A DNA stretch of 60,841 bases, the filler included, from Nemertoderma westbladi (lineage: Eukaryota; Animalia; Xenacoelomorpha), in the NCBI GenBank assembly GCA_032718475.1. It is 3 parts of 3 records of this genome, joined end to end, with 100 filler letters (N's around TTAATTAATTAA, not from the genome) between each part and the next. Parts side by side here need not be neighbours in the genome. Positions count along the whole stretch, not along the records: positions 28,540 to 53,721 come from JAUCBJ010005313.1; 2 more parts are not named here. One strand, written 5' to 3'. Shown one piece after another: positions 28,440-55,570 of this stretch. How positions within the stretch are numbered: the first letter of the stretch is position 1; the number at the start of each line of letters is the position of its first letter. The translations under genes were made by a program, and so were the position numbers. Under the pieces are notes generated by a model, which was given only the letters and a program-made list of their open reading frames with translations, did no database searches and was not told the origin of the DNA.

Positions 28440-28539
28440 NNNNNNNNNNNNNNNNNNNNNNNNNNNNNNNNNNNNNNNNNNNNTTAATTAATTAANNNNN
28501 NNNNNNNNNNNNNNNNNNNNNNNNNNNNNNNNNNNNNNN
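28440..28539. other. Assembly gap with artificial TTAATTAATTAA spacer
   Basis: 100-bp N block containing a six-frame stop linker. Confidence 0.95.
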
Positions 28540-28819
28540 GGGGGCATATGGCGCCAGGCAAAAATACCCGGGGGTATTTTCGGATAGTGCCATAAATCCA
28601 TGACACGCCCCCCCCCCCCACGCCCCCCTAATTTTTCTACAAATCTTAATGAGATTGCATGAAATTTGAAACAGAGAAAGTTTCACCTCCCGACCACTGA
28701 CTGGGTGAGCCAGAATTTATATTTTTGCAGTCAATCTTTAACAAGACAAGCGTACAAAAAAGTGTCTCCTGCGATATTGTTCCAGTCCCACCGCATGTAT
28801 TCTTATACCTCATAGCTGT

Positions 28820-31822: not shown

Positions 31823-32741
31823 GTAAGACGTCCGTTTCGCAGTTAATTGAGAGGCGTTCTTGGGAGATGAATGTTAAACAAACGGTGAATGTTAAACAAA
31901 CGGTGAAAAAATTTACCAAGTTTTCAAAACCAGAAAGGAAATGCAAATGGCGGCAAAAGGTCAACAGTATCCACCAATAAAATGATCACGAACTCTTCCG
32001 AATACCTCATAATATAGACCTGGGAATTAGCTCTACTTCTTCATTTTCTTAAAGTAAATAAATTAGTTAATTATTAAATAATTATAATTATCGACCTAAA
32101 CGTGATACCCTCGTATTCATCGCATCGACGATAACTTCTGACATGGAACTCGCATATTATTTAATGTCAATAATAATTTATTATTATAATATAGATAGGA
32201 CTAAATGATGCATACTGACGTTATTGATGAAATAATGTTGCTACTTTTATTTAAATCGATATTTAAACACCTGAGGGTTATTGTATTTTAAAATACAACA
32301 AATCAAAATCATTATAATGAAAGAAAATTATAGATTGTAATTACAATATTATAAATAATTATCAAATAACTCTCTAATGATAGCCAATAATAATAAATCA
32401 TTACAACCATATCAAGGATTGAATTATAATTCAGGACACAGTTGTATGCGATCCAGTGCATTCAAGCTGTGGAATTTTCAATAAAGACTTACGCAAAGTG
32501 GGACATGCGAGCAAACATGAAAATATAGTTAAAAAACGCAGAATTAACTTTTAATCCAATAGGATGGATATTTTGAAGACAGCTTTATTATAGTGCAGCA
32601 AGTTAATAAATGCAACATAATAAATAAATATTATGATTTCAACACTAAAATATAGTAACGGCATTTTGAATTGCAGTTTCTCCAAAACAACCAACAAACA
32701 CTCTCGCAGTAGTCCAGCTGTTAGCATTACAACCAGTTATC

Positions 32742-35700
32742 TCAGTTGACAACGTCAGGTAGTTTCTCTATAGTTCGGCTTCGATTCAAACTATATCCTT
32801 GGCTCTTTCGCTCACCTCCCCGCCTCCTACGACCCGCTGGTCTCGACTCTCGGGCCAGACGCTTGGCAATGTCGTCATTGACATCCACACTGAGGACGTC
32901 GTCCGTGGAGTAATCCAAGAGATCGTTAATCTGGAACCCGGTGCGACGCCCCCTACGAGACACTTTGTGAACTCCGCCTCTCTCGTCTCTTATGTTTCCT
33001 TCCGCGACGCTAGATGGCGCTCCAGTTTTCAATAAATTATGCAACTCGGTATTTCGAACAGATTTTCCCGGGGACTTCTTGGCCCCGTCTGGTTGCGATT
33101 CCCTATTTTTGAGTTTAACTTTTTCATTGTGTTGAATTATTTTCTCTCGCATCGTCTTGTATTCGAGAGCAAACTCTATAATTGTTTTACAGAATTCTGC
33201 AGGTTTCACCGATTTGACAGCTGACACGGACATTCCGAAGTATAGAAGAAGTTTATAGAACCGACAATGTAATCGACGATGCACCGACTTCAACACGGCG
33301 ACCTTCACAGCGCAATCCTTCAAAAAAGCGGTCATTTGCTTCTTTTGCTTGAAGGTGCGGTCTCTCTTCACTATGCGGCTCAAATTTTCCCAAGAAACCA
33401 AACACTGATTCTCAACATTCGTCAAGTTGTCCTGAATTTGGTCGAAGTCAACATGAGAACATCTAACTAATCCCCCCAGCTCGGAATACAGATCGCGACA
33501 CTGTGGGTGACGCTCCATCATAAGGTTGACAAGATGGTAAATTAACGACTGTCTATGAACGGTATCTTTAACTTCGGTGGCTTTAGAAAGATATTCCAAA
33601 TGAAAACCGCACGCATCAGTGTTGTTCAAAAAGTTCCCAATAGATAGAAGCAAGCCGATGACCTTATGAAACGTTTGACAATGAACTAATTGATTCATAC
33701 CCATTTTTAAATCCATAAGTGGCTCTGCAATCTCCAATTCCAACGCGTCGTAATCCAACTTAAAGATCCACAAACGCAACCTCGCTTCCAACTCTGGAAC
33801 CATACTCAAAGTGATTAAGAACTTCTCCGCAGACCCAAGAGGCACTTCAGGGTTGGACATTTGAGCTTTACGTATCTTAACAACTTCTTCCTCGTCATTG
33901 GGAATGATACTAATAATTTTCTCTATACCTTCTCTGTTTAAAGCAATCATATCCATGTTTCCTATCGCCGTCCTAATTGTCCTCGGTAGCGGTAAACTTG
34001 ATAATGCTATATTGATTTGGTTTGATCGTTTGGAATCTAAAACTGTAGTCACCGTCTTCTTATCATCCTTCTTTTTATTAAGTTCTTTGGATTTGTTCTC
34101 AAAAAGATTTTCGATGGTCTCATAGTCTAACTGTTTTTCTTCACCTATCGTATCCCAGAGGAGTCCAGTACCCCATCGAAATTTCAAAGATTTCGGTAAT
34201 TTCTTCACTTCTTTCCAAAACAATCGAACAGTCTTCTTTGATTTATTAGGAAAGAATGACTTTCCAGTTGCAGATGATGCCAAAGGTGGAGGAGGTGGAG
34301 GAGGGGGAACAGGTACGTCACCGTGCAGTGGCGGAGGTGGTGGAATACTTGAGAGTAAGGGGGGAGGTGGAGGTGGCGGAGGAATACATCCAGCAACTAC
34401 TTGGGGGGCATTAGTAGGATAAGATTTCAGAAACCACTTATCAATATCCTCATCATCTGACTCATGTAAATCAGTAAAATCAAGATCACGAATTTTTAAA
34501 TGAAGACTTTCGAATTTCAAATTCTTAGTCAGTTCATGATCCTCAATACCATATTTTTTGGTTGTATCGACTTCTTCCATGGCCTCCATATCATCATTGG
34601 CATCATCAGCTGTAAATATTTTTCGAGGTGATCGTTTATTCTCTTTATCCGGCTCTGTTCCTTTATTATTTTTAAATTCTATTTTATTACAGTCTGGGTC
34701 TTCACCAGCACTGGAAGCAGCGTTTTCTTTTTGTTTTGTAGCAGCAAGGGATAATCTTCTATCGGCGACAGCACTCTTAGCAGCATCACTTTCTACCTTC
34801 AACATTTGGCTTGTAATATTTTTCTTCGCTTCCTGAATACCTGCAGTTGTCCATTTAGGCAAATCTAACTTGGTTCTAGGAACTGTCTTCGACTGCGCTT
34901 CTTTCTGCTTCAACATAAAACTATTAGCTAATTTACTTTTAACAGCTGCATGTTTATCATTAAATTCCTTATTTTGCATAATTTTTGGGGGCTGAGTTTC
35001 TCTAAATGACAGGTTATCTTTACAAACGTTAATTTGAGTTGCAGTGACTACACTATTATCTAGAACATTATCGCAAGTAGTCTGTAAGGAGTTGTTTTCT
35101 ACAATCTGGCAAAGATGGTTATGTATTGGCTTATCTTGAAGGGTACTTGTGGAGGAGCACTGCGCACTCAGTTGGTTTCCTGGTGTCTGTGCGAGCATAT
35201 CTATAACATGAAGCGGCTGTTCATTCTCACTAAGCACATCAAATTCACTTTCTAACTGAACAACCTCGGTTAGCTCTGCCAGTTGTAAGATTGTTGCTTT
35301 GATGCTAGAAGAAATTTCGTCAGCAGTCATGTGCTCCTGACTGGCTCGTTTTAAAACCTCAGCCACTTCATTCATCTTTGCTTTCACAGTGCTAGCTTTT
35401 GCAATACTAAGTGGGATTTTATTTCTTTTGATTAGAAAATCAAGTCCATCTACCTTCTTAGCAGTAGCATTAGTAGCATTCACTAGGTCGTTCCCACTAC
35501 CAGACACCGCGGATTCAAATTTTGATCCTTTGAGTAATTTCCGATGATATCGCTCCTCGCCATTTAATTCACCAGGGCAAGATTTTTTCAACAAGTATTC
35601 AACTGCCTGATCAAGTTTTTCTGTTATTCCAGATGTTTTTGCTCCATCACTAAAACATCTTTGAATCTTTCTCCCAGATAATGCATCAGTTTGTAATCCT

Positions 35701-38700
35701 TTTGGTTCGGCGTCACTAGGAAAAAGCCCAACCGTTGCAGCTTCTCCCTTAGCATACTTATTTGGTGGCGGCAATGCAGCTACCATTTCAGGAGTATTGA
35801 CAATTGGAACACTCATTTTTCTTATCACATCACCAGGTTTAATTTGATCATTCGATTGTTGTTGGCGCATTTCATTTAAATGTCTTAGCATTTTGTTAGT
35901 AGCACTCAAACTATCAGATATTTTTTTACCACTTTCAGTACCATTTGAAAAAATTATTTTCGATTTATCAGGCAGATTACTCTCAATATCTCTCTGAAGA
36001 TCCATATATCTATCATTTGAAACTCCATTGTTACATAAAGAAGACGTAATATTTGCATTGTCAACTGTCCCGTTTTTCAGATCCAAGTTCCTGGTGATTT
36101 TTGAACTCGTAGGAGATTCGTGAAGACTCATTTTTCTTATCACATCACTTGGTTTTATTTTATCTTTCACTTGGTCCTCTCGCATATCATTCACATAGCC
36201 TAACATTCTGTTAGCAGCTTTCTGAGCATCAGAATGTACCTTAATGTTTTGATTGACCTCTGTTGATTGACAATCTGATGAAGATATTGTAAGTTTCGCC
36301 TCCGGTACCTCAATGTCGGCTGAACTATTACTATGACCTTGATTTAATGATGTTTTACCATTCTGTTGTTTTTGTCGCATCTCATTTAAATATATCAACA
36401 TTCTATCTGTAGATCTCTGGGCATCAGCAGAAGGACCAGAAGGTGTTATAATATGTTCATTATCGTTAATATTTGCATGAAAATCTTGCAATACCATTCC
36501 ATTGTCAACAAACTTTTCAGATACAGCATTCCCAGACGATGGGGTTTTATTTAAAGTCTTTAAGTTTGTTGATGGATTTCTTTTCGCAATTGCCTTTCCT
36601 ACAGCCGAAGCTGAACCTGGACCACAAATAGCAGAATGAGATGATATTGGAACACTCATTTTTCTTATCATATCACCTGGCTTTATTTGATCTTTTGATT
36701 GTTCCTGACGCATTTCATTCAAATAACTCATCATTTTGTTAGTAGCTCTCTCAGCACCTGACGGCAACCCAGGTTGTTGATTAAGATCTTTAGCCTGGGC
36801 GGAATTCTGGGTTCTATCTTTCAATTCTGTTGCTTTATCTGTAAGTGAGTCGGAATTTAGGTTTTTTAGGTTGTTGATATGATTCTGTCCTTCATTAACA
36901 TCAGAACTACAAGTTGAGACACGGTTTTTGTCAGAATTTTCAAGATTGCCTGGATGTTTTATAGCTGAATTTGATTGTTTTACTGATAAATTCGCTTTAT
37001 TCTTGCTATTTAGATCTCCTGTGGTACTCATTTTCCTTCTCATATTACCTGGTATTGATTGTTCTTTCGGTTGTTCCTGTCGCATCTCGTTCAAATAACT
37101 GAGCATTTTGTTAGCAGCTACCTGGGCTGCAGAGGGTCGTTTATTTTCTAAACAATCTTTATTGCTATAATGAATACTTGCAGCTTTATCTACAAGTGGT
37201 TGTGTACTTGTATGCTTTGAATTAGTTTCTGTAAATATCTCTGAAACAATGTGATTATTAGGTGGGATTGAAACTTTATTAGATAAGGCAAAATTTGTTG
37301 AACCTAAAGATTTTGAACGTTCTTTCTTCAGAGATAAACCAGCACCATATTTAACACTTTTGGGTTTTCCGTGCATGCTCATTTTACTTATCATATCACC
37401 TGGCTTTATTTGATCTTTTGATTGATCCTGACGCATTTCATTCAAATAACTCATCATTTTGTTAGCAGCTCTATCAGAATCAGAATGACATTCAGGTTTT
37501 TGAGTAACATCATTGGACAGGGAGACATTTCTAGTTCCATCTTGTAATCCCATTGCTTTATGTGTGTCATGATTGAGGTTATTTGTGTTGATCTGCTTAT
37601 GCCCTTCATTAGTATTAGTACTGCTAGATTGGATATATTTTGCAGATTTATTAAAGTTAACGGGATGTTTTATAGCTTGAGATTTCGGAGATCCTATGTT
37701 TCTCATTTTCATTGGAACATCATCTGGTTTTGTGCAATCATTTAATTGTTCCCGTTGCATTTCATTCAAATTGCTCAGCATTCTATTAGCAGTAACCTGA
37801 GCTGGAGAAAGCGATTTATCTTTTAAGCAACCATCTTTTATAGATAATGCAACATTTGTTGGACATATTGGTTTCGAATTTTCCTCTTTCGTGGACAACC
37901 CTGCATTAAGTTTATGGTTTTCTGGTATTCCTTGCATACTCATTTTTCTTATGAGATCAACTGGTTTTGATTGATCTTGTTGTTCCTGTCGCATCTCATT
38001 CAGATAGCTCAGCATTTTTTTAGTAGCTATCTGGGCAGACGTAGGTGCATTGCTTTGTTCGGCATTTCTACTACATTGCGACATCATAGCTTCATCCACA
38101 ACTAAACCTGTACTATAATTATTGATAATTTGCTGCCCTTGGGTTCCAGGAATATTAGTCATATCCACAGATGGTGTCATCTTCTTACCCGCTATATCAG
38201 AGTTAGTAGCGCTCTTACTTTTGGAATTTGACTCTTTCACCGCCAATTCTTTATTTTTATAATTTCGGGGCACTGGAATTCTCATTTTTCTTGTTTTATC
38301 ATCTTGTTTTTCATTATCATTCAGTTGTTCTTGTTGCATCTTTTTCAAATAGCTTAGCATTTTATTAGTAGCTGTCTGGGCATCTGAAGGTGATTTGATT
38401 CGATCACTATCTTTAATGTGATCAGTAACAGCATCAGCTGCCAAAGCTATTCTATTGTCTACAACTACAGAATCTATAATGTTCTGACTGGAATTGGTCT
38501 CATTGCATCTTTCAGGTATATCATGCCTTGATGGTGACAATGGCTTTTTTTTAGAATTTCCAGTGGAATGTTTCATTTGCATATTTCCCTCTTCAACGGA
38601 ATCTGCTGAACTAACTTGAATACTCGATTTTCTCATACTATCTGCTGGTATGGCATGATCTTTCAATTGCTCCTGCCTCATCTCAGTCAAATACCGCTTC

Positions 38701-41700
38701 ATTTTGTTAGCTGCAACCTGAGCACCAGATAGCGATTTATCTTGTTTAAGGCTATCTGCTTCATTTTCACATTTTGGTATTATTATTACATTGTCTTTCA
38801 ATGCACTTATTCTAGACTGCTCACTAATGTCATTTGACACATTTCCTTTGGTAGAAATACTATCAGATACTGTTTTATTCTTGGAAACATCAACATTCCC
38901 TGTAATTATACTTTCTGAATTGGAATCTGTAGCAGGAATTGCACGACTATTATTATGCTTCTTACATTCTGGAATTATCTTTTTTCTTATCACATCTACT
39001 GAATTTGTTTCATTTTTAATTTCCTCTTTTTGCATGTCATTCAAGTGGCTTAACATTTTGGTGGATTCTGGCAATCGTTCTGTAATCGGAGAGATTGTTT
39101 CACTTTCAAGCATTGAATTATCAAATAATTTCAAATCAGTATTTTTTAGGAGACTATCTATCCCGCCTTCTGGCTCTTTGTGGTGCCTACCACATTTAAT
39201 TTTTGGATCCTTCTTTGTCAATGTAATTTCGAAATTTTGATCCTGGTCAGCTACATTAATCCTTTGATTAATATCACCGGGTTTCATTTTTTCCAGCCCT
39301 TGTTGCGGATTTAAATCAGTGCAGTAATCACGCGACTTAAAGCTAGCTGCAACTTTTGGGTCACAAAGAGTAGAATCTGACTTCCTTTGTACTTCTGATT
39401 TTATATCAGTCTGAGGCACAGTTACATCATCTTCTGGCCCTGATTTGCCAAAATTAGGCTTAATGAGAGATTGCTCATGTTTAAAAATCTTCTCAGTAAA
39501 TGATGCATTATTCACTGAATTAGCATATACTTTCTTATTATTTATATCCTTTTCTGTATCAACCAATTCATTCAACAGTTTGTTGGTATCCACTCTATGG
39601 TTTATTGAATCCCTTTGTTTCCCCGCAGGTTGAACAGAATCTACTGGGAATCTCTTCTGTAATTTTGCGCATTTAACATCATTTGCATCATGCAACAACA
39701 TGTTTTTACCCTCAGATTGTACTGAATGACTTCTATTTCTCGATATGGGAATATTTGAGTTTACCTTTTTCACTACAATTCTCCCTTTTTGGCTATCATG
39801 AGGTAATCCTGCACTTTCATTGTGTAATACGTGACTTGATTCTATAGAATGTTTCCCAGATTTATTGTGTCTTGGAACAGACATATCTGTGTACTTTTGC
39901 TTAGAATTAATGTCATTGGCTTCATCAGCAAATCGTTCTTTATCTTCAATGATATTATTTTCTGACAATGGCGATGTCTGGTTTTCAATTTCAGATTTAT
40001 GCATCGATTTATTATCTGATTGTACCTCTGAAATCTTCGCCCGTTTTTTATTTACAGTCTGTTTATTCTTGTGATGAGTTCGATGAGTAAGCTCAGAAAG
40101 TTGCTGAGATTCAGTATCAGATAAACTAATTTTTCGTGCTATATCCTTGGCTCTTTTAGTTTCAGTTTTCTGTTCATTTCTCATTGCCTCTAAAGATGCT
40201 TGCATTCGCTCTGCAACACTGGGACGTCTTTGTTCTGGACAAATAGAAGATCCCGGTTTTGATACATTCGTTATCTTTCGGTGTTCAATATTATCAAAAC
40301 GTTCAGTATAAGAACTAGACGGTTGATTTTGACATTTATCTTCTATTTCTTTGTTGAAATTAGCCTCGCCTTGAAAATCTGGTTTATTTTTTATGTCATA
40401 TTTACACTTTACACTTGAATTATTGATAAGAATGTCTGGTCTCCTGACATTATTATTTATATTTAAATCATCTACACATGTATCAACAGCTGATTCAGAT
40501 TCAAACTCCTTTGTCTTTGAATGTCTACTATCATTCATAACTGTAGTATTAGAAATATTTGATTGGGAAAGTACATCACTCCCATTATTGCTTTGGATAA
40601 ATTTCGATTGATATTTGGTAAACTGTGATTTAGAAATGGGCAATTCTTCAGCGGTAGCATCTTTGGAAACAACCTGTTTACATCTAAACCCAGTTCTGTT
40701 ATCGATGGTTTTTGGTTTATCAAGATAATCAACACTATTGTTACCAATTGTAAAATCATTCTTATCAAGAGTTGAATTTTGAGGTCTCGAAAGTTCTGTA
40801 GAATTTGAATCTTCTAATAATTGAAGGTTATCCTTTTCAGTCTTGTGGTCTGGAAGTACATTTGATGGAGTATCATAGCATATTTTATAAGCATTAGTAG
40901 GTACTTTAACAGTTTTAACAGTTCCATTTACACCACCTGGTGTATTATTTTTTGACAATGAATTAGATGCATCCGTTCCATGAGTCTGCTTACTAGGAAT
41001 ATTTGTTGCATGACTTGAGCTACCTTCAGTATCCAGCTGTGTAACATCATGAGCACATGTGATATTTCCATTTCTCAAATCTTTAGATTGCGTTGTAGTT
41101 TTGCTCTTAGACCCAGTCAATTTTCTTGATGCCGCAGCAAAATGTTGATGGAGAACATTCTTTAGAAGTTTTACTACTTTATCTTGAGAATCAGATAATC
41201 GCCGACTTAATGCGCCTTTATGTTTCGGCAAATTCCCTCCCTTATGACTTTTTATACTACCAGATTGAGGTAATTCCGTCTGTAAGGAATTGGAAGCAAT
41301 GGTATTTCCTTTATGTGAATTATCTTGCACTGCCGATTTGTTAGGTAGTGAGCTTGTACTTGGATTAGCAGATCTATTATCATTACTGGTATTATCTGAA
41401 CATGAATTGGAACTAATATTATCATAAGAAGGCACAGTGTCACTAGATAAATTGTTTCGCATTGAAATCGTGTGCTCATTGATACTTTTTTTATCATCAT
41501 CCAAGGATTGTTGTGTCCTCAACATGTAATCCATATGGAAAGGTTTCTTTCTACTTTCATTCTCGCTTTTCAGCATAGGACCTTTATAATTCGAATTAAT
41601 TTGGATTTGCTTAATTCCAGAATTCCCCAAGTTATCACAATAATTTTCTGATTTTGATGAGCAATTGTTTCCTCTGCCTCTTCTATAGATTTCAATATTT

Positions 41701-44700
41701 CCTTTTACAGAAGTATCATCATCTTCTCCAATTACAAAAACATCTGTTGACATCTGTGACTCTTCACCGTCAGATACAACAGGCTGTTTATGAAACAACT
41801 CAATAGATGCATCCATAGTTCTCATAAAAGACTCGTCTTGGTTTTGTGATAAACCGTTATTGTTACTTCTGCCATTACTGTTCATATTTATATGTTTCAT
41901 ATCCACATCACTAGCATTAGCCGTTGCGAAAGACATTGAGTTGTCTGAAGATGATTCAACAACGTCTTGAGGGACATTAAATTCGGCAGTAGAATTATTA
42001 CAATGCTTAGAATCAATAAATGTAGGGCCATTATGTTTTATTACATTAATCTCACAAACACTATTAATTGTATCACTTACATCTTTTCTCAAGGCAGATT
42101 GTTGTAAATTATCTGCTGGTTTGCTGTGAGCTTCTATACATTGACTGTCATATAATATTGACTCTTGATGCTCTACCTTTGCAAACTTTTTACTTTTGGA
42201 CGATTTACTTGTGTCAGAAGGCCTAGTAATTTCCCTAGAGCTTGTGCAATTTCTAGTTATACTGTTGTGGTTATCACATTGAGCCAGTGCATTCAAACTA
42301 GCATTACAATGTCTTTTCATTTGCTGATTGTCTAGAAATTGTTGATCTTGGCTATCAGTAGCATTATTAATAGGAACACACTGGATATCATTTTCATGTT
42401 TTGAGTATTCTTCAAGCTGCATCTTGAGGTCGGCAACACTGCCAAAAGACGTTGCCCGCACTATGTTATTAGAGTCACCAACACCTTCATTGTTATTGTC
42501 TGATGTCAATGATGACGACATCAATTTGTTGGATCTTTTAACATCTTGAGCTCCCTCAAGTGCCAGTGTGAGGTCAGCAACACTGCCAAAAGACTCAGTT
42601 TTTTTTATAAAAGAGGAATCTAAACTCTTTCCATTATCAGTTTGGGGTATAATTGTTTGTGATTGACTAGCTCCTTTCGCTTCCTCAATTTGTGTCTTCA
42701 GGTCAGCAACACTGCCAAATGACTCAGTTTTTCTAATATTAGAAGAATCCAAACTCTTTCCATTATCAGTTTGGGGTATAATTGTTTGTGATTGACTAGC
42801 TCCTTTCGCTTCCTCAATTTGTGTCCTCAGTTCAATAACACTGCCAAATGACCTGGTTTTCATAATTTTACTTGATTCCACAATGTTGTCATCATCAATT
42901 ACATCAGCTACAGAAGCAGATAGCACTTTGTGGGACCCATTGCTATCTTCGTGGTCTTCAAATTGTGTTTTCAAGTTAGCAACACAGCCAAAAGATTTTG
43001 CTCTTTGTCGATTGTTTGACTCGAGGATGTTTTCATCTACAGCATCAGATGTAGGAGCTGGAATCATTGCGTATGATTCATCTACTTCTAACACGTCATT
43101 TGGTCTACCATTGCACGACCTATCTACAAGACCACTTTCCTGTAACATGGTTTTTAAGTTTTCTATTTGATTGATGTTCATATTTTCAATTCCAATTTGC
43201 ATGATATTTGATTTAATGTTAGGGTCACAATTGAAAAGTAAGGCCTTTAACTCATCAATATGTGTAAAACTATCTGATCGTTTTACAGGCTCATATTCGT
43301 CATCACAGTTTTCGATTGAGCCACCCTGTGTGCTAAGCATAGACACTTGACTTTGGATATTCTCGGAACTCTGCAATAATTGTGTATCCAGGTCGTTTAT
43401 GGTTTCAAACTTCTTGGATTTTGGGAAGTAGAATTCCTTTTGTGAAATTGCTTTGCCTATTTTGCTATTCCCAGTCATATCTAGACTGATAGAGCCATTA
43501 CTCCTCACAATATCGTGTAGATGGTTAGACTGAGACTCACTAGAAATATCATACAAGTTTAACTTTGAAGATCCAGCACTTAATTCTCTTTGGTTATCAG
43601 AATGTAAACTCTTTGAGTGATTTACATTTTCAAATGCATTTTTAATGTCACTTACTAACGATGTCTGGATAAGTTTTCCATTTGAATCGGTGTGAATATT
43701 TTGCTTCATTTTCTCCGATTGCAAACACATATTCTTCAATTTACCACCAACCTCCATGTGACCACCAGTAGTGCCACTTTGTTTCTTTAAAGTTAAACCT
43801 TCTTCAAGTTTGCGTTTCCTCTCCTTCAAACTTAAATATGTCTCTTCAAATACCCCACTCTCATCGTTGTTAAGATTGCTATTTTTAGGAAGAGGAACAG
43901 GTGGCTTAGAAGGATAATTCTTTGAAGGATATGGTAATCCTTCTTGTGCCTCAGTGGTTGTAGCGTTTCCATCAAGATTAAGAATAACTCCATCTTGTAA
44001 AGTTTCACAATCATTATTGTTCTCATTGGAAGTCAATCCCATAATATTATCGAAATACTTCAATGATGACTCAAATAATCGTTTTCGACGTTCTTTAACA
44101 TCAATAGCCTGTAAACTGCTTCTTCTTTGATCAATTGATTTCGAGGTTAACTCTAGCTGTAATTTCCTTTTCCGCTCTTCAATGCTACCAATGTCATCAT
44201 TGTCAGCAAATGCATCTTCGCCACTTAGAGAAACATCATCACTGTCAATCTCACACAGTTTGCAAAAAGTATTTGCTAATTCCTCCGTAGGAGGCATGTG
44301 AGACAAAATATCTGAAATTGATAAAGAATCCTCTCCAGTCTCATCTATAAATTCCTTTAAAACAGAGGCTAAGGCTGTTGAAGATTGATCGTTTAAATCG
44401 ATCTCACACATGTCCTCATGTTCATACGAGTTACCAAGATCGGTTTCCTCATTATCAGGAAGCACATCTCCATCTTTACACTCGACAGTATGATTGCTCA
44501 ACACATCTACTGTATCGAAGCCCTCCATCATATCACTGATTGCAAATTGGATTGCACTGCACATGAGTAGAACGTCCTCATGAACACTACCCCGTGACAC
44601 TGGTGGTGAAGGCGTCACTTGAGATACTGCCATACTTAAAACATCATACTCATTGTCATGTTGCGGGGAAATACTTCGCTCAATTGCTCTGTGCAAATAA

Positions 44701-46045
44701 AATGGCCGTTCAGATGCATCTTGGTAAAGAAGTTCATCATTATCTTGTAATGGATCTATTGTGTCACTAGGGAGAATATTTGTCAATTCATTTGAAGACA
44801 TGACGCTTTCTATCTCACATGATGACACTGGGGAAATCAAATCACGTGAAAGTTCATTGGCAAACCTTGTAGGTGCATTCCCATTCATTGCTTCTGCGAT
44901 TTCATCATCGCAATAATCATCATTATTTGGATCACTATCATTGCAAGCAATATCGCTTCTAATAAAACTATATTCGCTGGCGTTATCTATGTCATTGGGT
45001 TCTCGTATACCAACATTAGAAACCTGAGAAATTGAACTGAATCTGCTAGTATTATCTGGAATGTGATCTTCCAAAATCTCATACATAGATGAAGTTCTAC
45101 TAATTGGTTGGTCAGACTCACTGCAATCCTGATTAAAAGGAAAGTCATTAAGTGTTAAACAAGAGCCACCTCTACTCATCATCAATCCAGACTCACTGTC
45201 TGCGTATCGTGATTCTTCAGAAATGTACCCTGAAGGTCGCAAACACTGGTTGAGACAAGAAATCGAGGAACTGCGACTTGGTGCTTCATCCAAGGCATCA
45301 TGCCATTCATCTACATCTTCATCATCCAAACCAACCAGAGAGTCATAATGTGAAATCAAGTTATGTTTGCGGTGGTTGTGATTCTCCATTGGTAGTGGTA
45401 TACGTAGACCTGTCGCAGGCATAGAGCCAATACTGCGTCGAGACTGACCAAATACCCCATCCTGACAACCAACGCGTTTTCTATCTGATCTCACCTCGTT
45501 CCTATGCCTGGATTCCTCGGATATCGAAGAACATCGATCACGACGTCTACAGTTTGGTACACTGATGGTACAATCCGAGGTTCTAGAATGCTCTTCCATT
45601 TCGCTCCCTTCACTACCTTCAGTCGCAGTTGATAGAAAGGTGTCGTACGATCGACGTCGATTCGAGGCACGTTGGTAAACAGTTCGACTGGACTGAGAAA
45701 CCAACGATTTTCTCCGCAATTGTCTCTCAGCCCGGCGCTTTTCTCGCTCGTCGAGTTTATTCCTACGCGACTCCTTATTAGCAGAATGATTCCTCGATGA
45801 ATCATCATCGTTGCGTCTCGAAGTTGATTTCGGTTCATCCATAACATCATTGTGGTCCGAATTCGCCCCATGCAATTCATTTACAATTTGTTCCCTTAGT
45901 CGCTTGTGATTGGCTATCTCTCTGTCTATTTCAAGCAGAGCATCCCGATATTCAATTTTCCTACTCGACTTTTGTTCTTCCGTTTCTGGAAAACTGAAAC
46001 TTCTTGTGTGCAACATGTTGTCGTTATTATCTTTGAATTCCATAG
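32742..46045 (-). CDS. FHOD: FHOD-family formin, giant terminal exon (13.3 kb): long low-complexity repeat region, FH1, FH2 and DAD-like tail
   Basis: Uninterrupted ORF; acceptor GTTTTCTAG|CT in phase 1. Polyproline FH1 at about 34280-34385. FH2 with FHOD signatures KKTVRLFWKEV, LDSKRSNQINI, PLGSAEKFL, ELEARLRLWIFKLDY, EIAEPLMDLK, EVKDTVHRQSL and EFALEYKT. Basic C-terminus. Confidence 0.95.
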
Positions 46046-46695
46046 CTAGAAAACATAAATATAACCAATATATGATAAAATTCCATATAGATATGAATTG
46101 ATCCATCTGACCAATTTACACTTTAATTTACTCCAATGCTTGACTAAATTATCAAATATATAGATAGAGTCATTGGGGGTAAAAAAAAGAGACCGCTTTG
46201 TGGGGTATAAAAAAACACTGCATAGCATAACTCAAGTTCACTTAAACGTGAGAAAGTGATATTAATACCATTTGAACGTTTTTTATTAGCTTAGCCAGTA
46301 TCCAATCAAATCACCCCAGCCTACAATATGACGTTGTTATCCAGCTGATTTAATGTTGTTATTCTTTTGGCTGGTGGAGGGTTCCAACCACAGTATTTCC
46401 CAACCATGAATTCTATTGGTTGCTTCGAATTCACCCTAGTTACCCACCTAAAATGTATGTGTGGGGTAAAAAAACAGGGTGATTCCAGCCGTTTCACACT
46501 GTTGAACAATACAAGTCTGAACTCAGCATGCCTGAGGTTGGCTAAAAGTATAATAATCTGTGAATACCTTATATATACGAGGTTACAGGTTTCAAAGGTT
46601 GATGTGATACCAAGGCATTCGCGCAGCACGAGGCTAAGATCAGAAACCAGTCGCCAGATCCGGTGGTCCTGGCAGCCCGGTATGGGAACCACGTA

Positions 46696-46848
46696 GGACC
46701 CGGACCCGGACCCGGACCCGGACCCGGACCCGGACCCGGACCCGGACCCGGACCCGGACCCGGACCCGGACCCGGACCCGGACCCGGACCCGGACCCGGA
46801 CCCGGACCCCCCGGACCCGGACCCGGACCCGGACCCGGACCCGGACCC
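46696..46848. repeat. (GGACCC)n hexanucleotide microsatellite in a FHOD intron
   Basis: About 25 near-perfect units. Confidence 0.95.
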
Positions 46849-47032
46849 GTAGGACCACACTATTGTACTAGTCAGAACATTTTCGCATATATTGTTAGAT
46901 TGTATCTCCTCATGTATCTTTAAATAAATAGACGCTGCGGGGGGGGGGGGGGGGGGGTACACGATCTAAACAACTACCCGAGCCTGATTCCCAGACTGCA
47001 TGATTCGAGTCTGATCGAATGCTACGTCGGTA

Positions 47033-47357
47033 CTGTGTCAAGTACAATCAATGCACACATCTCCAACCAGACACAATATAACATTGGAGGTGTCTCATTG
47101 GTTCCCCCAAGCTTGACACTAGAACAAAATCGCCTCCGCTTTGCAGGACATTGCTTTCGCCGTGAGGACCAGCCACTGCATAATCTTGTACTTTGGCAGC
47201 CTCATGGAGTGAATAAGCATGGTGGATAGCCCATGACTTTCTTGAGACGCCTCTTAAAGGACACTGGCCTTGAAGATGCGGATGATCTAGCAAATGTCAT
47301 GGGTGATAGGAGTTGTAGCGGCGTAATTTTGTCAAGAAGCCGACACAGTATTCTTAA
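47033..47357 (+). mobile_element. RTE-type 3' fragment (copy 2)
   Basis: LEQNRLRFAGHCFRREDQPLHNLVLWQP..TFLRRLLKDTGLED; similar boundaries to 4945-5303. Confidence 0.75.
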
Positions 47358-48469
47358 TGCGCGCTGCATTGGCAAAACTATTTTTGTTAATGTTATTTTT
47401 GTAAATTTTAGCAGCAAGCCTATTATAGTAGTGGATCGAATTTTCATTCAACCGATTCACCACAGAGTAGTTTCTATTAGCCTCAATCACCGAAATCCAT
47501 GTCAAATATGCGGCCTGATCCTTCGGTTGTTGCGTGATTTATAACAGAGGCATCAGATTAGGCAGTTAGGTAGGACTACTACACTACTGAGCTGATGATT
47601 CCACATTTGAAACTATGTTTTTTATTTACCCACACTTTTTTTTTTCACCCCATTTTGGGGTAAAAAAAATATCACTTTTTTTACCAGAATTTCTTTAAAT
47701 ATATGTTCGGTGATATTGTTTGATGATCATTAAGTTACATTTTTTATTAGTTTTCAGACAATACAGTACCAAATTTATTTAAATCCATGGAATATTAACA
47801 ATTTTATTGACAAAAAACGGAAATTGTTTTTTTTACCCCCAATGACTATAAATGGTATTTTGAATTAATGGTTAATATTTTTTTAGGTAATGGCTAAAGG
47901 GAATATTTAAAAAAAAAAATACAACAATGAGCACATATAATGCTATAAGGGCACATTTTATTTCTAAAATTAGCCCATTATTTGGAGACAGGGGGGGGGG
48001 GGGGGGGGGGGGCTGGACGCAAAACCCGCCTTGGCTAATTAATATCCCGCCTCAATGTTAAATTCTCAATTTAGGGAAAGGAGCAGGTTACAGTGGCACG
48101 TTATTTTAACCAAAACAATAAACTAAACACAATAGAACAGGTTACAGTGTCATTTTTGAGAGTAATCAACTGTTATTTGCGTCGAATTTCCCCTGGAGAG
48201 GGATTCATTTGTATTGCGTCCAGTCCCCCCCCCCCCCCCCCCCCCCATCTGAATATTTAAGGTTCCACTTGTTCAGCTCGAAATTCTGTATAAGGGTCAA
48301 AAATTTCATGGCAATTGGATTTACAGATCTCGAGAAAAGGGAACATGAATAAAATTACCTCCGCGCTAATCGCTAAAGGAGTAAACGGAGCTGAAAGTCA
48401 AAGCTCGTATATAAAAGGTGCCATATTATTGCTTAAAAGTTTTGAAGGATTAGGATTTAGGTGATGTGA

Positions 48470-49020
48470 GTTGGATTATCGGAATCCACATAAACATCGA
48501 TAATATCGATATCGACTTGTTCTGTTAGGATATGAAGCAGTCCTTTATAAATGACAGGTTGAATGATTCTGAAAAGACCAATATTGATACGCTGGTTAAT
48601 AGTTATAATACAACTCTGATTACTGATCTCAATAAACATGCCCCAGTTATAACAAAGAACATCACTTCTAGACCCACGTATCCCTGGTATAACGAAGATA
48701 CAGTATAACAAAGAGGAAAAGACTGAAAAGAAAGCTAGAAAGGCAATACCAAAAAGACATGACAGATCTGCATCTTGTGCATCTGTTTCGAGATCAATGC
48801 AAGGTGGTATGCAATACTATATCACGTGTCAAACAGGAATACTACTGTACAGGTAGGTCTCAAGTGAATGAAAGTAGGAAGGACACAAGGACAAGGATTC
48901 AAAATCGTTAATAAGGTGCTATATCGCAATCGAGATATAAAACTGCCAGATCACGATTCTGAAGAAGTTCTGGCAAATGAGTTCTGGCAGACTATTTTGA
49001 ATAAAAAATTAGAAATTATC
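48470..49020 (+). mobile_element. L2-clade LINE ORF2 internal fragment
   Basis: LVNSYNTTL..LNKHAPV...RPTYPWYNED..KRKLERQY..KIVNKVL..LP..EVLANEF, the typical region between APE and RT in L2. Confidence 0.75.
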
Positions 49021-50093
49021 CGATAAGAGACTATGTCCGAGATTTCAAGGTCCGCTTTGGGACGTTGGGGGGGGGGCACCACACAGTCACTCACCAGCTG
49101 ATTCTGGGACAATCGCTGACTATTTATTTGTAAGAGGTTTTAGAAATTGCTGATTTATGTTATTTTAAATCGTCTGATAATTCTGACCCACTAACTCAAT
49201 CACCAATCTTTAGCGAGTTTCTTCCCACAGGGTGTCTTCACTATATACAATACACTACACGTTTGTGGGGCCTTCGCGCAGCACGAGAGCCTGTATTAGA
49301 AAGTACATTATACTAATTTCAATTAGATATACGAAAACAGTCCTTCGCCAAATATATATGAGTGAAGGCGATGCTATCAGTTTGCGATAAATTAGTTGTA
49401 AAAACAGAGATCGATTTCACTTTGTCCTTACACACTTTAACTGTTATTTGTAAACCTTCTAACTAGGGCTATTTATGTTAAGTACGACATTTTTAAATTT
49501 ACAATACTCTTCTCCTTCACTAGCCTCTGTTGTTGTCTGAAAATAATTTCCCTAAACGGAGACTAACGACCTTTGTAACTGTGCAAAGTCTCGAAACTGT
49601 GAGAGTAACTGCTGATTTATGGCAGATGGATACTCGTATCCACTGTAAACTCGTTGCGTTCGTTCGTTTTTACCAAATTTCCAAATCTTTCTAAACTTTT
49701 GCCGGACTACATATGTTAGAAGTTTCGTTTATTTTCATTAAGGAATAACCGAGTTATTAGCGATCAAAAATTTACGACGACGACGACAGACAACTCGTTA
49801 ATGGCACCCATATGCGAACCCTTCGCTCACTTCGTAGCTCGCCCCACATAGTGTGTCTCCCATAGTGGTTGAAACGGAGAAGAGGGGGAGGGAGGGGGGG
49901 GGGGGGGGGGGGGTTCTCATTGGCAGACTGTACCAGATCGCCAAAAAAAGCAAACGGTTACAACGTGACAAAGGTTACAAAATTGTACCTTTAACGCATA
50001 CTGAGTCGAAAATTACAATTAGCAATCCAAAGGTTATTATTACACACGAATTTAACACACGAAAACCACGTTGTCTTAGTTAATGTGACTCAC

Positions 50094-50316
50094 CTCCCAA
50101 ACTCCGCTGACGTTTGAACATGGTGGAGTCATGACTACCAGTCTGGAGTTCGGCTGATGTTGGATTGTTAATACAAACGGTGTTAGGAATATCAACATGT
50201 TGTTGAAATATAATAAACTGTTCAGTTAGACCAGCGTCTATGGTTCCACTGCATCGGGTATCATCAATGTAATGCTGGATGCCTTGTTCCATTAATGAAT
50301 TCATTACATCTTTCAC
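50094..50316 (-). CDS. FHOD: FHOD formin exon (end of FH3 region)
   Basis: TTTCAG| VKDVMNSLMEQGIQHYID..LTEQFIIFQ..SLG |GTGAGT; phase 0 to 1 joins the giant exon in frame. Confidence 0.85.
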
Positions 50317-50821
50317 CTGAAAGGTTAAATCCGAATTAATGTCCGGGGGGATTCTTTGGCTGAGAGTTGAATTCCGTATAACCATACCGTTTGGCGCATT
50401 ATTGATAAGTCTAATTTTGTAATGGACAGAAAAATGCGAGAAATCCTTTATTAGTTTTTGTTTGCTTTAAAAACTAAATACAGTATGTTTAAAAAAAGGT
50501 TGCAAAAAGTTATTGAATTTAATTGAAAATTAATGGAAAAAATTGAATGGTCTGAAACTCACCTTTACAGGATCGAATATCGTATTGCTTTTGCATATGA
50601 AAATTATTGGGCGTGAAATTTGATCACTTTTAGGAAAGGCATTGTATTGTATACGCAATGCGTTGTATACGTAGGGTTACAACGTCTTATCTGCCGGACT
50701 ACAAGCATTATACAAAACAAAATTCTGAAGAATTAAAAGAAAGACTGTAAGGTCCAAAAAGTCGTACTTAAACTTAATCTTAAAATAATTTTCTGAAAAA
50801 AATACCAATTAACATACTTAC

Positions 50822-51071
50822 CATACTTCCAGATGTACCACCACCTCCTTGTAAACCACAAAGTAATTTATTAATAATTGTCATTCCTTTGATGTTTATC
50901 TGAACATCGTCCTGGTAAAGCAACTCGAACACATTTACCAGGAGTTTCTGTCCGCATTTCGTATCATATTGGACTATACTAGACATCAGATCGTGGCAAT
51001 GGCCTCTAACATTGTCGCCGGCTTCAACTAGTAGATGGAGAATGAGTTTCACTGCAGAATTCCGAACCAAC
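50822..51071 (-). CDS. FHOD: FHOD formin exon (FH3)
   Basis: TGCAG| RLVRNSAVKLILHLLVE..GMTIINKLL..GSM |GTAAGT; resembles FHOD RLVVKTALKLL and AMTLINKTL. Confidence 0.85.
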
Positions 51072-51427
51072 CTGCATTGAATTAATATACAATTGTTTGG
51101 TATTTTATTTCTATGGAAATGGCAGGCCTCGACCCTTATAATATTGATCTAACTTATTATTAAACGCAACAAACAATCTATCCTTGACAATTTGAGGATT
51201 CGGACATTACAGTTGTTTTTTACAAACTGCAAAAAAAAATATAATCTTAAAATCATGTAAAACAACACAACTTCAATCAGAGTAAACAATATAATTTGAA
51301 CGAACAGAATTGGAAACATTTTTCAGCGAGGTTGCCAACAACTATTCTGTAGAAGTCTCCAGTACCAATTAGCATATTATATTGCCATATTTAACAAACA
51401 CAGAAAAGTGGCTAACATCGGAAATGT

Positions 51428-52110
51428 GGGGCGACCGACGAAAGTAAGATAGGTTAGCATACAGGTACCACTAACCCAATCGGTGCGTCTGTTGCTCTGT
51501 CGATCTGTTGTGTTCAATTTTAAACGTTAATAACTTAGTCAAATCTTAATGAATTCTATCCAAACTTGGTACACATGTAGTCTGGCAAAAGTTAAGAAAT
51601 TTTCCACGTTGAATTTCCGTGTGGCCTTCGAGAAGCTAAGATAATAGCAGTTAATTAGATAATTAAGTTGATTAGAGTAAAAACAGCAATTTCAACCTGC
51701 CTCTTAAAGGATATTAATTATTTTCTAGTATAAGATTTAAATAATTATACTTAAAAATTATACAACTGTATTCCCCATACCCTATTCCATTATAGTTTTA
51801 AATTAGTTTAAGAGATTTGCTTTAAGAAATGTGTTTTTAATTGATCTAAACGTAATTAAGTTAAAATGCATTCCTCATACTTCCAGCTCCATCATTCCTT
51901 GGCATTCTTGATATTGCCTATTAGATGGGAACCAGTCCAATCATCTCACCACTACTTGGCAAAGGGTAATTACATCTATAGGACATGAGGCAGGCACTAG
52001 TGTAACTAATGAGCCAGCTTTTTGCAAGATAAAGCATCTTGCAAAATGATAGGCGGATATTTCAGTATCAATACTATCGGCATAAGGTAAGTTTAATTAC
52101 TTTTTACAAA
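51428..52110 (+). repeat. Dispersed repeat, unclassified (copy 2)
   Basis: Colinear with 28820-29630. Confidence 0.85.
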
Positions 52111-52578
52111 TAAGAGTGAAAATTCACTTTTCATGGAAAAAATTTAAGTCTCTTTACTTTCAACGGCGACAAACAAAACAAAAAAGATACATATACAGTA
52201 CCAAGGCAACAAATAATTGTATAATACTCATCACAAAGCCCGCGGTCAACGGGCCACAGCTGGATTACAAGTGATTTTCTACACTACATGGTTGATTTTA
52301 AATGAATCTATGGTTTCTATGAAGCATACGATAAAAAATACTTCTCTAAAAACCGTGCCTCCGCAAAACCTATTTAACCACGTGTATGAAACTCATATAG
52401 TTGCAACATAATTCAGTTTCATTATTCAGCACTAAGCAGGACACGTCATGTTTTTGGCGAAGAAAAAAGCCAGTCGAAATTAACCAATTATCACTATGGA
52501 ATTTATGGAATTTTTTTGCAGACGATACATAAACTGTAAACAGACTAGTCAGACTGTATTCATTCTCGCATCTCTAAC

Positions 52579-52889
52579 CTGTATATACTACCAACGGCAC
52601 AATACACCCACTGTAGACATGTGTTACTCTTAGCAACGGCCAGCATGGTCGTAGGATGGTCTAACAACTGAGCTAGGGCCCGTAAAGAGTAGGTCTGAGT
52701 GTTGTGGTCGGAGCTGGAAGATCCAATGTCAACCAGGTGATCCACACCATTAAGGTTAATAAACTCCTCAGCTATGCTGTGGTTGTGCTCGAACGTGTTC
52801 CTTATAGTGAACAACAACTTCCTCAGTTCTCTGTCCCGAGAACTGCACAAACTTTTAATGATATCTCGCGCAGTTTTTCTGCTATCCAT
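52579..52889 (-). CDS. FHOD: FHOD formin, first visible coding exon (GBD/FH3 armadillo region)
   Basis: RELRKLLFTIRNTFE..EEFINLNGVDHLVDIG..HNTQTYSLRALAQLL..LQWVY resembles FHOD RELRRALFSLKQIF..NYQNYILRALGQ..IQWLY; donor AG|GTTAGA in phase 2. The start codon is uncertain. Confidence 0.85.
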
Positions 52890-53721: not shown

Positions 53722-53821
53722 NNNNNNNNNNNNNNNNNNNNNNNNNNNNNNNNNNNNNNNNNNNNTTAATTAATTAANNNNNNNNNNNNNNNNNNNNNNN
53801 NNNNNNNNNNNNNNNNNNNNN
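53722..53821. other. Assembly gap with artificial TTAATTAATTAA spacer
   Basis: Same layout as the 28440 gap. Confidence 0.95.
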
Positions 53822-54394: not shown

Positions 54395-55127
54395 TGTGTT
54401 CCAGCAAGATGGTGCACCGCCACACTGGGGGCTTATCGTTAGGAATTATTTGGACTGTCATTTTAACGGACATTGGATTGGCAGAGATGGACTTCTATTT
54501 ATGGGGCCACATTAAGAACTTAGTTTATAGCCAACCGATTGAATCCTTGGCCCAACTTCGTCCTGCTATTACTGAAGCCTTCAACGGAATACCGAAAGCC
54601 CATGTTCAGAGATCCTTTGCAGAAATGATGAGTAGACTAGGAAATAGGAGGTGGCCACATAGAAATTTACAAATAGATACCGGTACAATAATAGCATTAA
54701 ACTTCTAGTGTCTAATCTAACTCTTAGATTCAATTACATTACAAGTACATTACAATTATTCCAGGTTTATTATATCGTCACAGGCATTATTTATTATTTA
54801 ATGCTAGAGTGTGTATGCATACATACAGTATTGCATTGATTGTATACTTTATTTGTTTGTCAGATTAATATGTTGAATATTGGCACAAAATAAATTGTAA
54901 TAAAATAAATAACCAAAAATAATACACTTTATGACCACCGTTCCTCGAATTTTATCCTTATTCAATTGGCTGTATTTTGTTTCCATGACAACGTTGAGTT
55001 TCCAAACACAGACCAAATTCTAAGTTACAATATTGGCTTTAAATTGTTATAAAAAACTTATATTTTATCCAACATACGTGGGAGTTATATAAATTCAAAG
55101 TAGTAACAAATTTTATGGGACACCCTG
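54395..55127 (+). mobile_element. Tc1/mariner-superfamily transposon remnant (3' part and right TIR)
   Basis: FQQDGAPPH and DFYLWGHIKNLVY..LRPAITEAF motifs; ends TTTTATGGGACACCCTG followed by TA. Confidence 0.8.
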
Positions 55128-55129
55128 TA

Positions 55130-55570
55130 TAATCAGTTTGACGGGGTGGCAATGGGTTCGCCGTTAGGTCCAGCGTTGGCAAACGCATCTCTGTCTTTCC
55201 ATGAGAGTAACTGGTTATGTGACTGCCCTGCTCATTACAAACCGAAACTGTATAGTAGATATGTGGATGATACTTTTCTAGTGTTTGATAACAAGGTTCA
55301 AGCAGATCAATTTTTAACGTACCTTAACTCGAAACACCCCAACATAAAATTTACGGTTGACATCGGAAAATACAGTTCCCTGTCATTTTTGGATGTCCTC
55401 GTAACAAAAACAACTGATTTCAGCTTTTCTACTAACGTGTACAGAAAACCGACCTTTAATGGGCTTTATACAAATTATTCCAGTTTCATGCCCTTAGTGT
55501 ACAAAGTAGGTTTATTGTTTACACTATTTTGGCGTTGTTATTGTATATACTCTAGTTATACTCTTTTCAA
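55130..55570 (+). mobile_element. Penelope-like element reverse transcriptase fragment
   Basis: QFDGVAMGSPLGPALAN, YSRYVDDTF, LNSKHPNIKFT, LSFLDV, VYRKPT. Confidence 0.85.

What the first reader, a model, noticed from the sequence alone, without database searches (positions are those of the whole stretch)
32742..52889. Giant FHOD formin (about 4695 aa) with a single 13.3-kb coding exon
Seen: four exons (311+250+223+13304 nt = 4696 codons including the stop) splice in frame with canonical sites. FH3 is separated from FH1-FH2 by about 3900 aa of Ser/Asn/Asp/Lys-rich sequence with no stop and no recognisable transposon, although the neighbouring introns hold many insertions. Known: FHOD1/3 are usually about 1200-1600 aa with FH2 split over many exons. 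Inference: a selected giant, largely disordered spacer or scaffold form (analogous to giant-exon ankyrins), possibly a long-range actin tether or ruler. The intronless FH2 suggests intron loss by recombination with cDNA.
Basis: partly seen in the sequence, partly recalled or inferred. Interest (0 to 1): 0.8.

Follow-up and report, generated by a model that had tools for sequence, protein, structure and literature searches.

The report
Giant one-exon actin-bundling formin copy
An animal gene codes a 4,695-residue FHOD formin whose last 4,434 codons sit in one unbroken exon; it is likely a processed, fast-evolving gene copy that has lost its off-switch and gained a huge floppy middle with repeated motifs predicted to grip actin filaments, an extreme form of the long FHOD proteins already annotated in crinoids, acorn worms and crayfish.

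Summary
In detail: four exons on the minus strand with GT-AG borders give 4,695 aa, and exon 4 is 13,304 nt without a stop. Size alone is not new: 105 FHOD proteins of 2,438-4,717 aa turned up, 96 with a long N-terminal extension and 9 (echinoderms, hemichordates) with a long FH3-FH1 spacer. This gene differs in four ways. Its FH3-to-FH2 distance is the longest seen (3,971 versus at most 3,353 aa). Spacer, FH1, FH2 and tail share one exon, and its three introns are not at the usual FHOD positions, so it is likely a retrocopy. It lacks the N-terminal module, and both halves of the autoinhibition switch are eroded. The spacer has no detectable relatives but holds five copies of a motif like the short F-actin-binding motif (SFM) and eleven helical repeats, both under moderate purifying selection. 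Best reading: a likely unclamped, multivalent actin bundler or tether. No transcript was seen, and shorter splice forms are not excluded. The scan had not noted this before.

The parts
52579..52889 (-). Exon 1 (311 nt): ATG and first part of FH3/DID armadillo domain (aa 1-104); no SRBM/GBD2 module in front; in-frame TAA 9 nt upstream of the ATG
50822..51071 (-). Exon 2 (250 nt): FH3 middle; the column of the DAD-binding valine (FHOD1 V228) is His here
50094..50316 (-). Exon 3 (223 nt): FH3 end (about aa 235) and start of the spacer
32742..46045 (-). Exon 4 (13,304 coding nt): spacer, FH1, FH2, C-terminal tail and stop
42411..44183 (-). [quoted passage not shown]
   Evidence: pattern classes taken from Suppl. 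Table 3 of PMC13364712
42411..43000 (-). Repeat A: five copies of SFG[SC]VxxLxxx[FIL]E at aa 1283, 1331, 1374, 1417, 1465; the first is a strict VxxLxxxFE; includes a young 129-bp tandem duplication (42571-42852)
   Evidence: pN/pS 0.47
35805..39080 (-). Repeat B: eleven copies of a predicted helix (core KMLSYLNEMRQEQ) at aa 2591-3646, spaced 65-125 aa, six followed by R-K-x-S; no relative found
34743..34769 (-). Nine residues (aa 4021-4029) that align with the predicted SFM of human FHOD3 (745-753); loose alignment
34467..34500 (-). FHOD-typical pre-FH1 motif (DLDFTDL, aa 4115); the only spacer part with detectable homology
34284..34382 (-). FH1: three polyproline tracts (P8, P5, P8; aa 4150-4182)
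33150..34247 (-). FH2 (about aa 4195-4560): 108 of 128 conserved columns kept; folds as FH2
32745..32890 (-). DAD-like tail: basic stretch kept, hydrophobic core eroded
32584..32589 (-). First AATAAA, about 150 nt after the stop (candidate polyadenylation signal)

Best explanation
This is an intact FHOD-type formin gene of 4,695 codons, likely born as a processed (retro) copy of an FHOD transcript that began at the FH3 exon, whose FH3-FH1 region then grew by internal duplication into a 3,900-residue, likely disordered arm that would bind actin filaments at many points. Shown: the reading frame, the domains, the absent N-terminal module, the eroded FH3 and DAD, the two repeat families and their excess of silent changes. 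Inferred: (1) retrocopy origin with three introns gained later in the FH3 part; (2) the FH2 dimer still binds filament ends and bundles, as its key residues are kept; (3) autoinhibition is weak or lost because the DAD-binding valine and the DAD core are both changed; (4) five to ten SFM-like helices near the N-terminal end of the arm grip filament sides, multiplying the weak actin-binding site that ordinary FHODs carry in this region; (5) the eleven repeat-B helices dock an unknown partner, perhaps under kinase control through their R-K-x-S sites. The product would be an always-available bundler or tether for a specialised actin structure.
For: Open frame far beyond chance. pN/pS 0.44 (95% 0.30-0.64) for repeat B cores and 0.47 (0.27-0.78) for repeat A, against 0.83-1.5 in shifted frames; 0.61 pooled over 47 DNA-defined repeat pairs, 46 of 47 offset by a multiple of three, 33 of 51 gaps multiples of three. 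FH2 keeps 108 of 128 conserved columns, FH3 only 39 of 92; the Ile and Lys that align with the mDia1 actin-contact residues are kept (mDia1 roles recalled). V228 column is V in 33 of 34 homologs and H here; V228E blocks DAD binding (bioRxiv 2020.06.19.161299, passages); a DAD core pattern matches 213 of 279 homolog tails and not this one (tail shown). Homology starts at the residue where alternative first exons join in 5 ambulacrarian species; many isoform borders of relatives fall inside what is one exon here. The FHOD region between FH3 and FH1 binds F-actin weakly and hosts muscle splice inserts (PMC10192571, passages); human FHOD3 745-753 is a predicted SFM (PMC13364712 Suppl. Table 3). 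One strict VxxLxxxFE match (shuffle mean 0.012); repeat A copies resemble the listed DENND1C and NAV2/3 motifs. R[RK]xS occurs 13 times in the spacer against 2.9 in shuffles (maximum 8 of 300).
Against: No transcript or protein evidence. Selection was measured only between internal repeat copies, which are not independent; motif windows were chosen by amino-acid likeness, which biases pN/pS down, and the youngest duplication is near neutral (pN 0.17, pS 0.22). About 2,500 spacer residues have no test beyond the open frame and codon-position bias. The SFM excess (14 versus 7.0, p 0.011) disappears when repeat A is counted once (10 versus 6.6, p 0.125), and the 861-1480 window was chosen after seeing the matches; four of five repeat A copies have I or L, not F, at position 8. 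No parent gene could be looked for. Usual FHOD intron positions rest on isoform and gene-model indels plus recall. Nineteen in-phase acceptor-like sites lie inside exon 4; the last (36274) would give about 1,440 aa (crude score).
Confidence: 0.5

Rival explanations
1. A functional formin with a tolerated, mostly neutral spacer: the frame is kept only because FH2 lies at the end of the same exon, and the repeats are by-products of duplication.
For: Any stop or frameshift upstream of FH2 would be lethal to the gene, which alone explains the open frame and in-frame indels. No relative of the spacer was found. Linkers between motifs diverge fast and pooled pN/pS is only 0.61. FH3 is strongly relaxed.
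Against: Repeat cores keep amino acids while silent sites diverge (pS 0.58, pN 0.25); eleven copies keep the same helix and six the same R-K-x-S site.
Confidence: 0.22
2. The species' only FHOD, changed in place: a fast-evolving lineage expanded the spacer as echinoderms and hemichordates did, and lost its introns by recombination with cDNA.
For: Same position of expansion as in 9 ambulacrarian proteins; FH2 groups with the deuterostome rows (99/95); most species have one FHOD (PMC4601495, first third read); a bryozoan FHOD is almost as divergent (FH3 34%, FH2 49% median identity). Upstream exons could lie beyond the N block.
Against: No homology to the ambulacrarian spacers and none of their DAD-like repeats; the three introns are off the usual positions; an in-frame stop 9 nt before the ATG bars a coding upstream exon at the obvious acceptor. 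The tree holds no cnidarian, acoel or tunicate rows and the branch is long (1.64).
Confidence: 0.16
3. The giant form is minor or absent: transcripts use an acceptor or start inside exon 4 and make a protein of ordinary size.
For: 19 in-phase acceptor-like sites at or above 4.5 inside exon 4, where the real acceptors score 4.7-8.4; strong acceptor-like sites are about as dense in exon 4 (0.53 per kb) as in non-coding DNA (0.54-0.94). Relatives splice their spacers in many ways.
Against: A skipped 10-kb stretch would not stay free of stops and repeats. No strong donor (score 5.5 or more) lies inside exon 4, though one real donor scores only 3.7.
Confidence: 0.12

Closest known systems
Long-spacer FHOD isoforms of crinoids, starfish and acorn worms (RefSeq models, e.g. 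Anneissia XP_033112303.1 4,064 aa; Antedon XP_071958933.1; Ptychodera XP_070574072.1)
   Same: Expansion between FH3 and FH1 (1,610-3,353 aa); low complexity; isoforms that start at the FH3 exon without the N-terminal module.
   Different: Those keep a conserved FH3 (about 70% identity) and DAD, are spliced from many exons, and carry a different repeat; no spacer homology. They are annotations; no paper on them appeared in the listings.
Drosophila Fhos long isoforms and other protostome long FHODs (PMC5061545 passages; PMC4601495 first third; crayfish 4,717 aa)
   Same: A long low-complexity addition to an FHOD; in the fly it sends the formin to the Z-disc and is needed in flight muscle.
   Different: The addition is N-terminal to the SRBM-FH3 module (96 of 105 long hits) and is an alternative 5' part of a conventional gene.
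Vertebrate FHOD1/FHOD3 (PMC10192571 passages; PMC3002041 passages)
   Same: FH3, disordered region, FH1 with three polyproline tracts, FH2, basic tail; FH2 46-51% identical.
   Different: FH3-to-FH2 distance about nine times the 426-aa median of the other long hits; no SRBM; eroded DAD switch; FH2 in one exon, whereas human FHOD3 reaches exon 26 at the end of FH2.
[quoted passage not shown]
   Same: VxxLxxx[F/L/I]E helices in disordered sequence, in several copies.
   Different: Only one strict match; binding untested; joined here to an FH2 domain.
Giant-exon ankyrins (search listing and abstract starts only; the rest recalled)
   Same: One very large exon coding mostly disordered sequence with short binding motifs.
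   Different: In ankyrins the giant exon is an optional internal insert; here it is the terminal exon and includes the catalytic domain.

Membership tests
FHOD formin subtype (by descent) | FH2 domain closest to FHOD FH2 | tested here: met
   42-52% identity to 36 FHOD FH2 domains against 16-23% to solved mDia1, DAAM1, FMNL3, INF2, Bni1; the tree held FHOD rows only
FHOD formin subtype (by descent) | FHOD-type FH3/DID armadillo domain | tested here: met
   PF24959 matches in exons 1 and 2; BLAST E about 1e-20 to homologs; 22-34% identity
FHOD formin subtype (by descent) | FH1 polyproline tracts and the pre-FH1 DLDFTDL motif | tested here: met
Canonical autoinhibited, nesprin-binding FHOD | N-terminal SRBM (GBD2, ubiquitin fold) | tested here: not met
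   No tblastn match anywhere in the window with 9 full-length homologs; in-frame stop before the ATG; DNA beyond the N block may not be contiguous
Canonical autoinhibited, nesprin-binding FHOD | DAD core and DAD-binding valine (FHOD1 V228) | tested here: not met
   H where 33 of 34 have V; DAD core pattern in 213 of 279 homologs, not here. Nesprin site A is R, K, F against R, R, F
Canonical autoinhibited, nesprin-binding FHOD | Actin bundling, capping or nucleation by FH2 | not testable with these tools
   Only sequence and fold: 108 of 128 conserved columns, FH2 fold
SFM F-actin-binding motif | Consensus VxxLxxxFE in a disordered region | tested here: inconclusive
   1 strict match, 4 paralogous copies with I/L at position 8; excess not significant once the copies are collapsed
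SFM F-actin-binding motif | Binds F-actin, lost on P1/P8 change | not testable with these tools
   needs co-sedimentation or cell localisation
Retrogene | Parental introns absent | tested here: met
   No intron at the FH3 start border or at the many spacer, FH2 and tail borders seen as isoform indels in relatives; positions are indirect
Retrogene | Intron-containing parent elsewhere in the genome | not testable with these tools
   no genome held
Retrogene | Poly(A) remnant or target-site duplication | tested here: inconclusive
   none seen by eye in 1 kb after the stop; not expected in an old copy
Giant-exon ankyrin-like isoform | Optional internal giant exon in an otherwise conventional gene | tested here: not met
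   exon 4 is terminal and holds FH1, FH2 and the stop

The most novel reading that the evidence does not exclude
A lineage-specific retrogene turned an FHOD formin into a 520-kDa, switch-less actin tether: about ten SFM helices hold one filament or bundle at one end, the FH2 dimer holds barbed ends at the other, and eleven phosphorylation-gated helices in between dock a partner lattice, giving a titin- or nebulin-like organiser of up to micrometre reach built from a formin.
Probability: 0.15. Interest if true: 0.78.

Novelty: new variant of a known kind. Interest (0 to 1): 0.47.

Why it matters
The FH3-FH1 region of FHODs is where vertebrate muscle isoforms insert targeting sequences and where weak filament-side binding resides, but how it works is unresolved (PMC10192571, passages). 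This gene is a natural amplification of that region, with candidate actin-binding motifs in several copies and without the usual switch, so short peptides from it give a direct test of whether FHOD side-binding is SFM-based and whether copy number turns a formin into a tether. It also shows that long FHODs arose more than once and at two positions: before FH3 in protostomes, after it in echinoderms, hemichordates and here. If the spacer is neutral, the gene is a curiosity.

Tried and rejected
RNA: no RNA holder was listed for window 33000-42900, which is no evidence either way; no reads could be laid. Genome search for a second FHOD: no genome held. Spacer relatives: none for the 1,100-aa repeat B region among 1.84 billion representatives; none for the first 1,250 aa of exon 4 among 7,984 scored candidates under 2,438 aa; no usable Atlas hit for repeat A or B; about 1,100 aa (1510-2570) were compared only with the FHOD hits and Pfam. 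No close ortholog: the best FH2 hits are about 50% identical in both length classes (only the best 120 of 4,129 listed). Complex prediction of an animal-type actin with the first repeat A copy gave no answer (score 0.21, mark 0.34), which is neither support nor evidence against. A by-eye likeness between aa 3786-3860 and a hemichordate spacer helix failed shuffling (p 0.16-0.84). Repeat B as a copy of the DAD or of the ambulacrarian spacer repeat: rejected, profile scores within the null. Pfam Cation_ATPase hit on repeat B (E 4e-4, under cut-off): treated as chance. Single-sequence fold of aa 3520-3870: pLDDT 41, separate helices, no domain; too weak to search. SFM excess in 8 other long FHOD spacers or extensions: none (p 0.10-1.0). 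Protein self-BLAST printed nothing; repeats were found by pattern and DNA self-alignment. Pfam scan of 118 further open stretches found only FH3 exon 2 and one weak chance-level hit. Supplement file 1 of PMC13364712 could not be read.
Full report
OBSERVATION. The longest open stretch in the window is 4,457 codons on the minus strand, 46115-32745. Joining 52889-52579, 51071-50822, 50316-50094 and 46045-32742 gives 14,088 nt, 4,695 aa and one stop, with GT-AG at all three introns. The other frames of exon 4 have 143-624 stops; about 324 would be expected in this frame by chance. The computed mass is 523 kDa. FH2 is one uninterrupted Pfam match (E 6e-70) and one uninterrupted tblastn match to each of nine homologs. 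Interspersed repeats shared with the rest of the window cover 43% of intron 1, 9.5% of intron 3 and none of exon 4. Two 100-base N/linker blocks (28440-28539, 53722-53821) bound the contiguous piece. No RNA data were obtained.

SIZE IS NOT UNIQUE. Searching with FH1-FH2 among proteins of 2,438-7,760 aa gave 106 hits, 105 of them FHOD-like, up to 4,717 aa. In 96 of the 105 the extra length lies before the FH3 module (arthropods, molluscs, nematodes and others); in 9 it lies between FH3 and FH2 (starfish, crinoids, acorn worms; 1,610-3,353 aa; one of the nine models lacks FH3, so its whole N-terminal part was counted). The window's distance is 3,971 aa; the median of the other 96 is 426. The fly's long N-terminal form is known to target Fhos to the Z-disc (PMC5061545, passages; PMC4601495, first third). 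I saw no paper on the long-spacer forms in the listings.

A DIVERGENT COPY. FH3 is 30% identical (median) to 34 homologs that are 67% identical among themselves; FH2 is 48% against 60%. FH3 keeps 39 of 92 conserved columns, FH2 108 of 128. No FH2 hit is closer than about 52%. In an FH2 tree of 37 rows the gene falls with the 16 deuterostome rows (99/95) on a branch of 1.64; with no cnidarian, acoel or tunicate rows this does not fix the lineage. The FH2 model is confident over the domain and matches mDia1, DAAM1, FMNL3 and INF2. The Ile and Lys aligned with the mDia1 actin-contact residues are kept (their role is recalled, and given for FHOD1 I705 in PMC10192571).

LOST PARTS. Nothing in the window matches the N-terminal SRBM/GBD2 module, and a TAA lies in frame 9 nt before the ATG. 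SRBM and FH3 bind nesprin only together, and FHOD1 V228E blocks DAD binding (bioRxiv 2020.06.19.161299, passages). The V228 column is V in 33 of 34 homologs and H here; a DAD core pattern is found in 213 of 279 homolog tails but not in this tail, which keeps only the basic stretch. I infer weak or absent autoinhibition; this is untested.

INTRONS. Homology begins at the residue where alternative first exons join in Ptychodera, Anneissia, Antedon, Asterias and Glandiceps, so module-less isoforms exist in relatives and that border is an intron position; here there is none. Isoform indels in relatives mark many borders in the spacer, one in FH2 and some in the tail, and human FHOD3 is at exon 26 at the end of FH2 (PMC3002041, passages). 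Gene-model insertions fall before human FHOD3 residues 135, 203 and 272, in line with recalled exon borders. The window's intron 1 lies inside the codon matching R204, five bases away, and intron 2 ten human codons after 272. So the usual introns look lost throughout and the three present look new. A retrocopy of a module-less transcript is the simplest account, but the positions are indirect and the parent could not be sought.

THE SPACER. Only the pre-FH1 motif and FH1 have detectable homologs; searches for relatives of the rest found none. Repeat A has five copies at aa 1283-1465 and repeat B eleven at aa 2591-3646. Between copies pN/pS is 0.47 and 0.44, against 0.83-1.5 in shifted frames; on 47 repeat pairs defined by DNA alignment it is 0.61, with 33 of 51 gaps a multiple of three. 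The pairs overlap, the motif windows are biased toward conservation, and the youngest duplication is near neutral. Purine excess at first codon positions (0.62-0.70) is like that of FH3 and FH2. Order-promoting residues are 20-25% against 36% in the folded domains.

CANDIDATE MECHANISM. The SFM consensus is VxxLxxxFE (PMC13364712, passages and section 7). The first repeat A copy is a strict match (shuffle mean 0.012). The paper's table lists motifs with L, I, M, W or Y at position 8, close look-alikes of repeat A (DENND1C, NAV2, NAV3), multi-copy XIRP proteins, and human FHOD3 745-753 as a prediction. That FHOD3 site aligns across invertebrate FHODs and, loosely, with aa 4021 here. A relaxed pattern matches 14 times in the spacer (7.0 expected, p 0.011), ten of them in aa 861-1480, but counting repeat A once leaves 10 against 6.6 (p 0.125), and eight other long FHOD regions show no excess. 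So multivalent filament-side binding is a lead resting on duplication and conservation of one motif. Repeat B is predicted helical (low confidence), is not a DAD copy by profile, and six copies end in R-K-x-S; this pattern occurs 13 times against 2.9 in shuffles (its reading as a PKA-type site is recalled). Fully stretched, 3,900 residues would span about 1.4 micrometres, but a free coil is only tens of nanometres (recalled scaling), so a tether is plausible and a ruler is not supported.

AGAINST THE GIANT FORM. A crude score finds 19 in-phase acceptor-like sites inside exon 4, the last of which would yield about 1,440 aa, and no strong internal donor. A routinely skipped 10-kb stretch should have gathered stops and repeats, so the giant form is probably made, but shorter forms are open.

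VERDICT. Real, intact, FHOD by descent, not a canonical autoinhibited FHOD. New variant of a known kind: the longest FH3-FH1 spacer seen, one-exon C-terminal 94%, eroded switch, candidate actin-binding repeats. The scan's earlier notes held nothing on this locus or on a like sequence.

Noticed in passing
P0002, P0003, P0007, P0009, P0024, P0110 (hemichordate and echinoderm FHODs): Their long FH3-FH1 spacers hold 32 copies in 6 proteins searched of a motif like D-D-[IV]-[ML]-x-L-L-S-x-G, shared by both phyla and resembling the DAD core by eye; it could bind FH3 or another partner many times. A profile of it scores true DADs only at null level. Absent from the window's gene.
   Followed up: partly
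human FHOD3 745-753 and aligned sites in invertebrate FHODs: The predicted SFM of human FHOD3 aligns with a conserved G/S-x-V motif about 60-85 aa before the pre-FH1 motif in amphioxus, echinoderms, hemichordates and several protostomes; it may be the weak filament-side site of the family.
   Followed up: partly
window 24626-27193 (+): A plus-strand exon-like stretch (about 24626-24828) is followed by a 70-bp tandem array made of its 3' end plus its GTAAGT donor (11.4 and 8.7 copies), of the 'mirage' kind noted elsewhere in this genome; host gene not identified, no Pfam match.
   Followed up: partly
window 25579-26580: A 1-kb element with 18-bp inverted ends and an 8-bp duplication splits that array; likely a non-autonomous hAT-type DNA transposon (read).
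   Followed up: no
window 8519-13015 (-): LINE with endonuclease and reverse transcriptase matches, broken into several frames; a short RT remnant also at 55107-55706 (+).
   Followed up: no
window 17068-17517 (-): 150-codon open stretch with a weak PHD-finger match (E 0.007, under cut-off), possibly a LINE ORF1 piece.
   Followed up: no
window 28440-28539 and 53722-53821: 44 N + a 12-base six-frame-stop linker + 44 N: assembly joins, so DNA across them may not be contiguous.
   Followed up: no
window 51425-52020 and 28817-29470: A 600-bp repeat, 79% identical, lies both in intron 1 and 3 kb downstream of the gene; a (GGACCC)26 array lies in intron 3 at 46696-46849.
   Followed up: no
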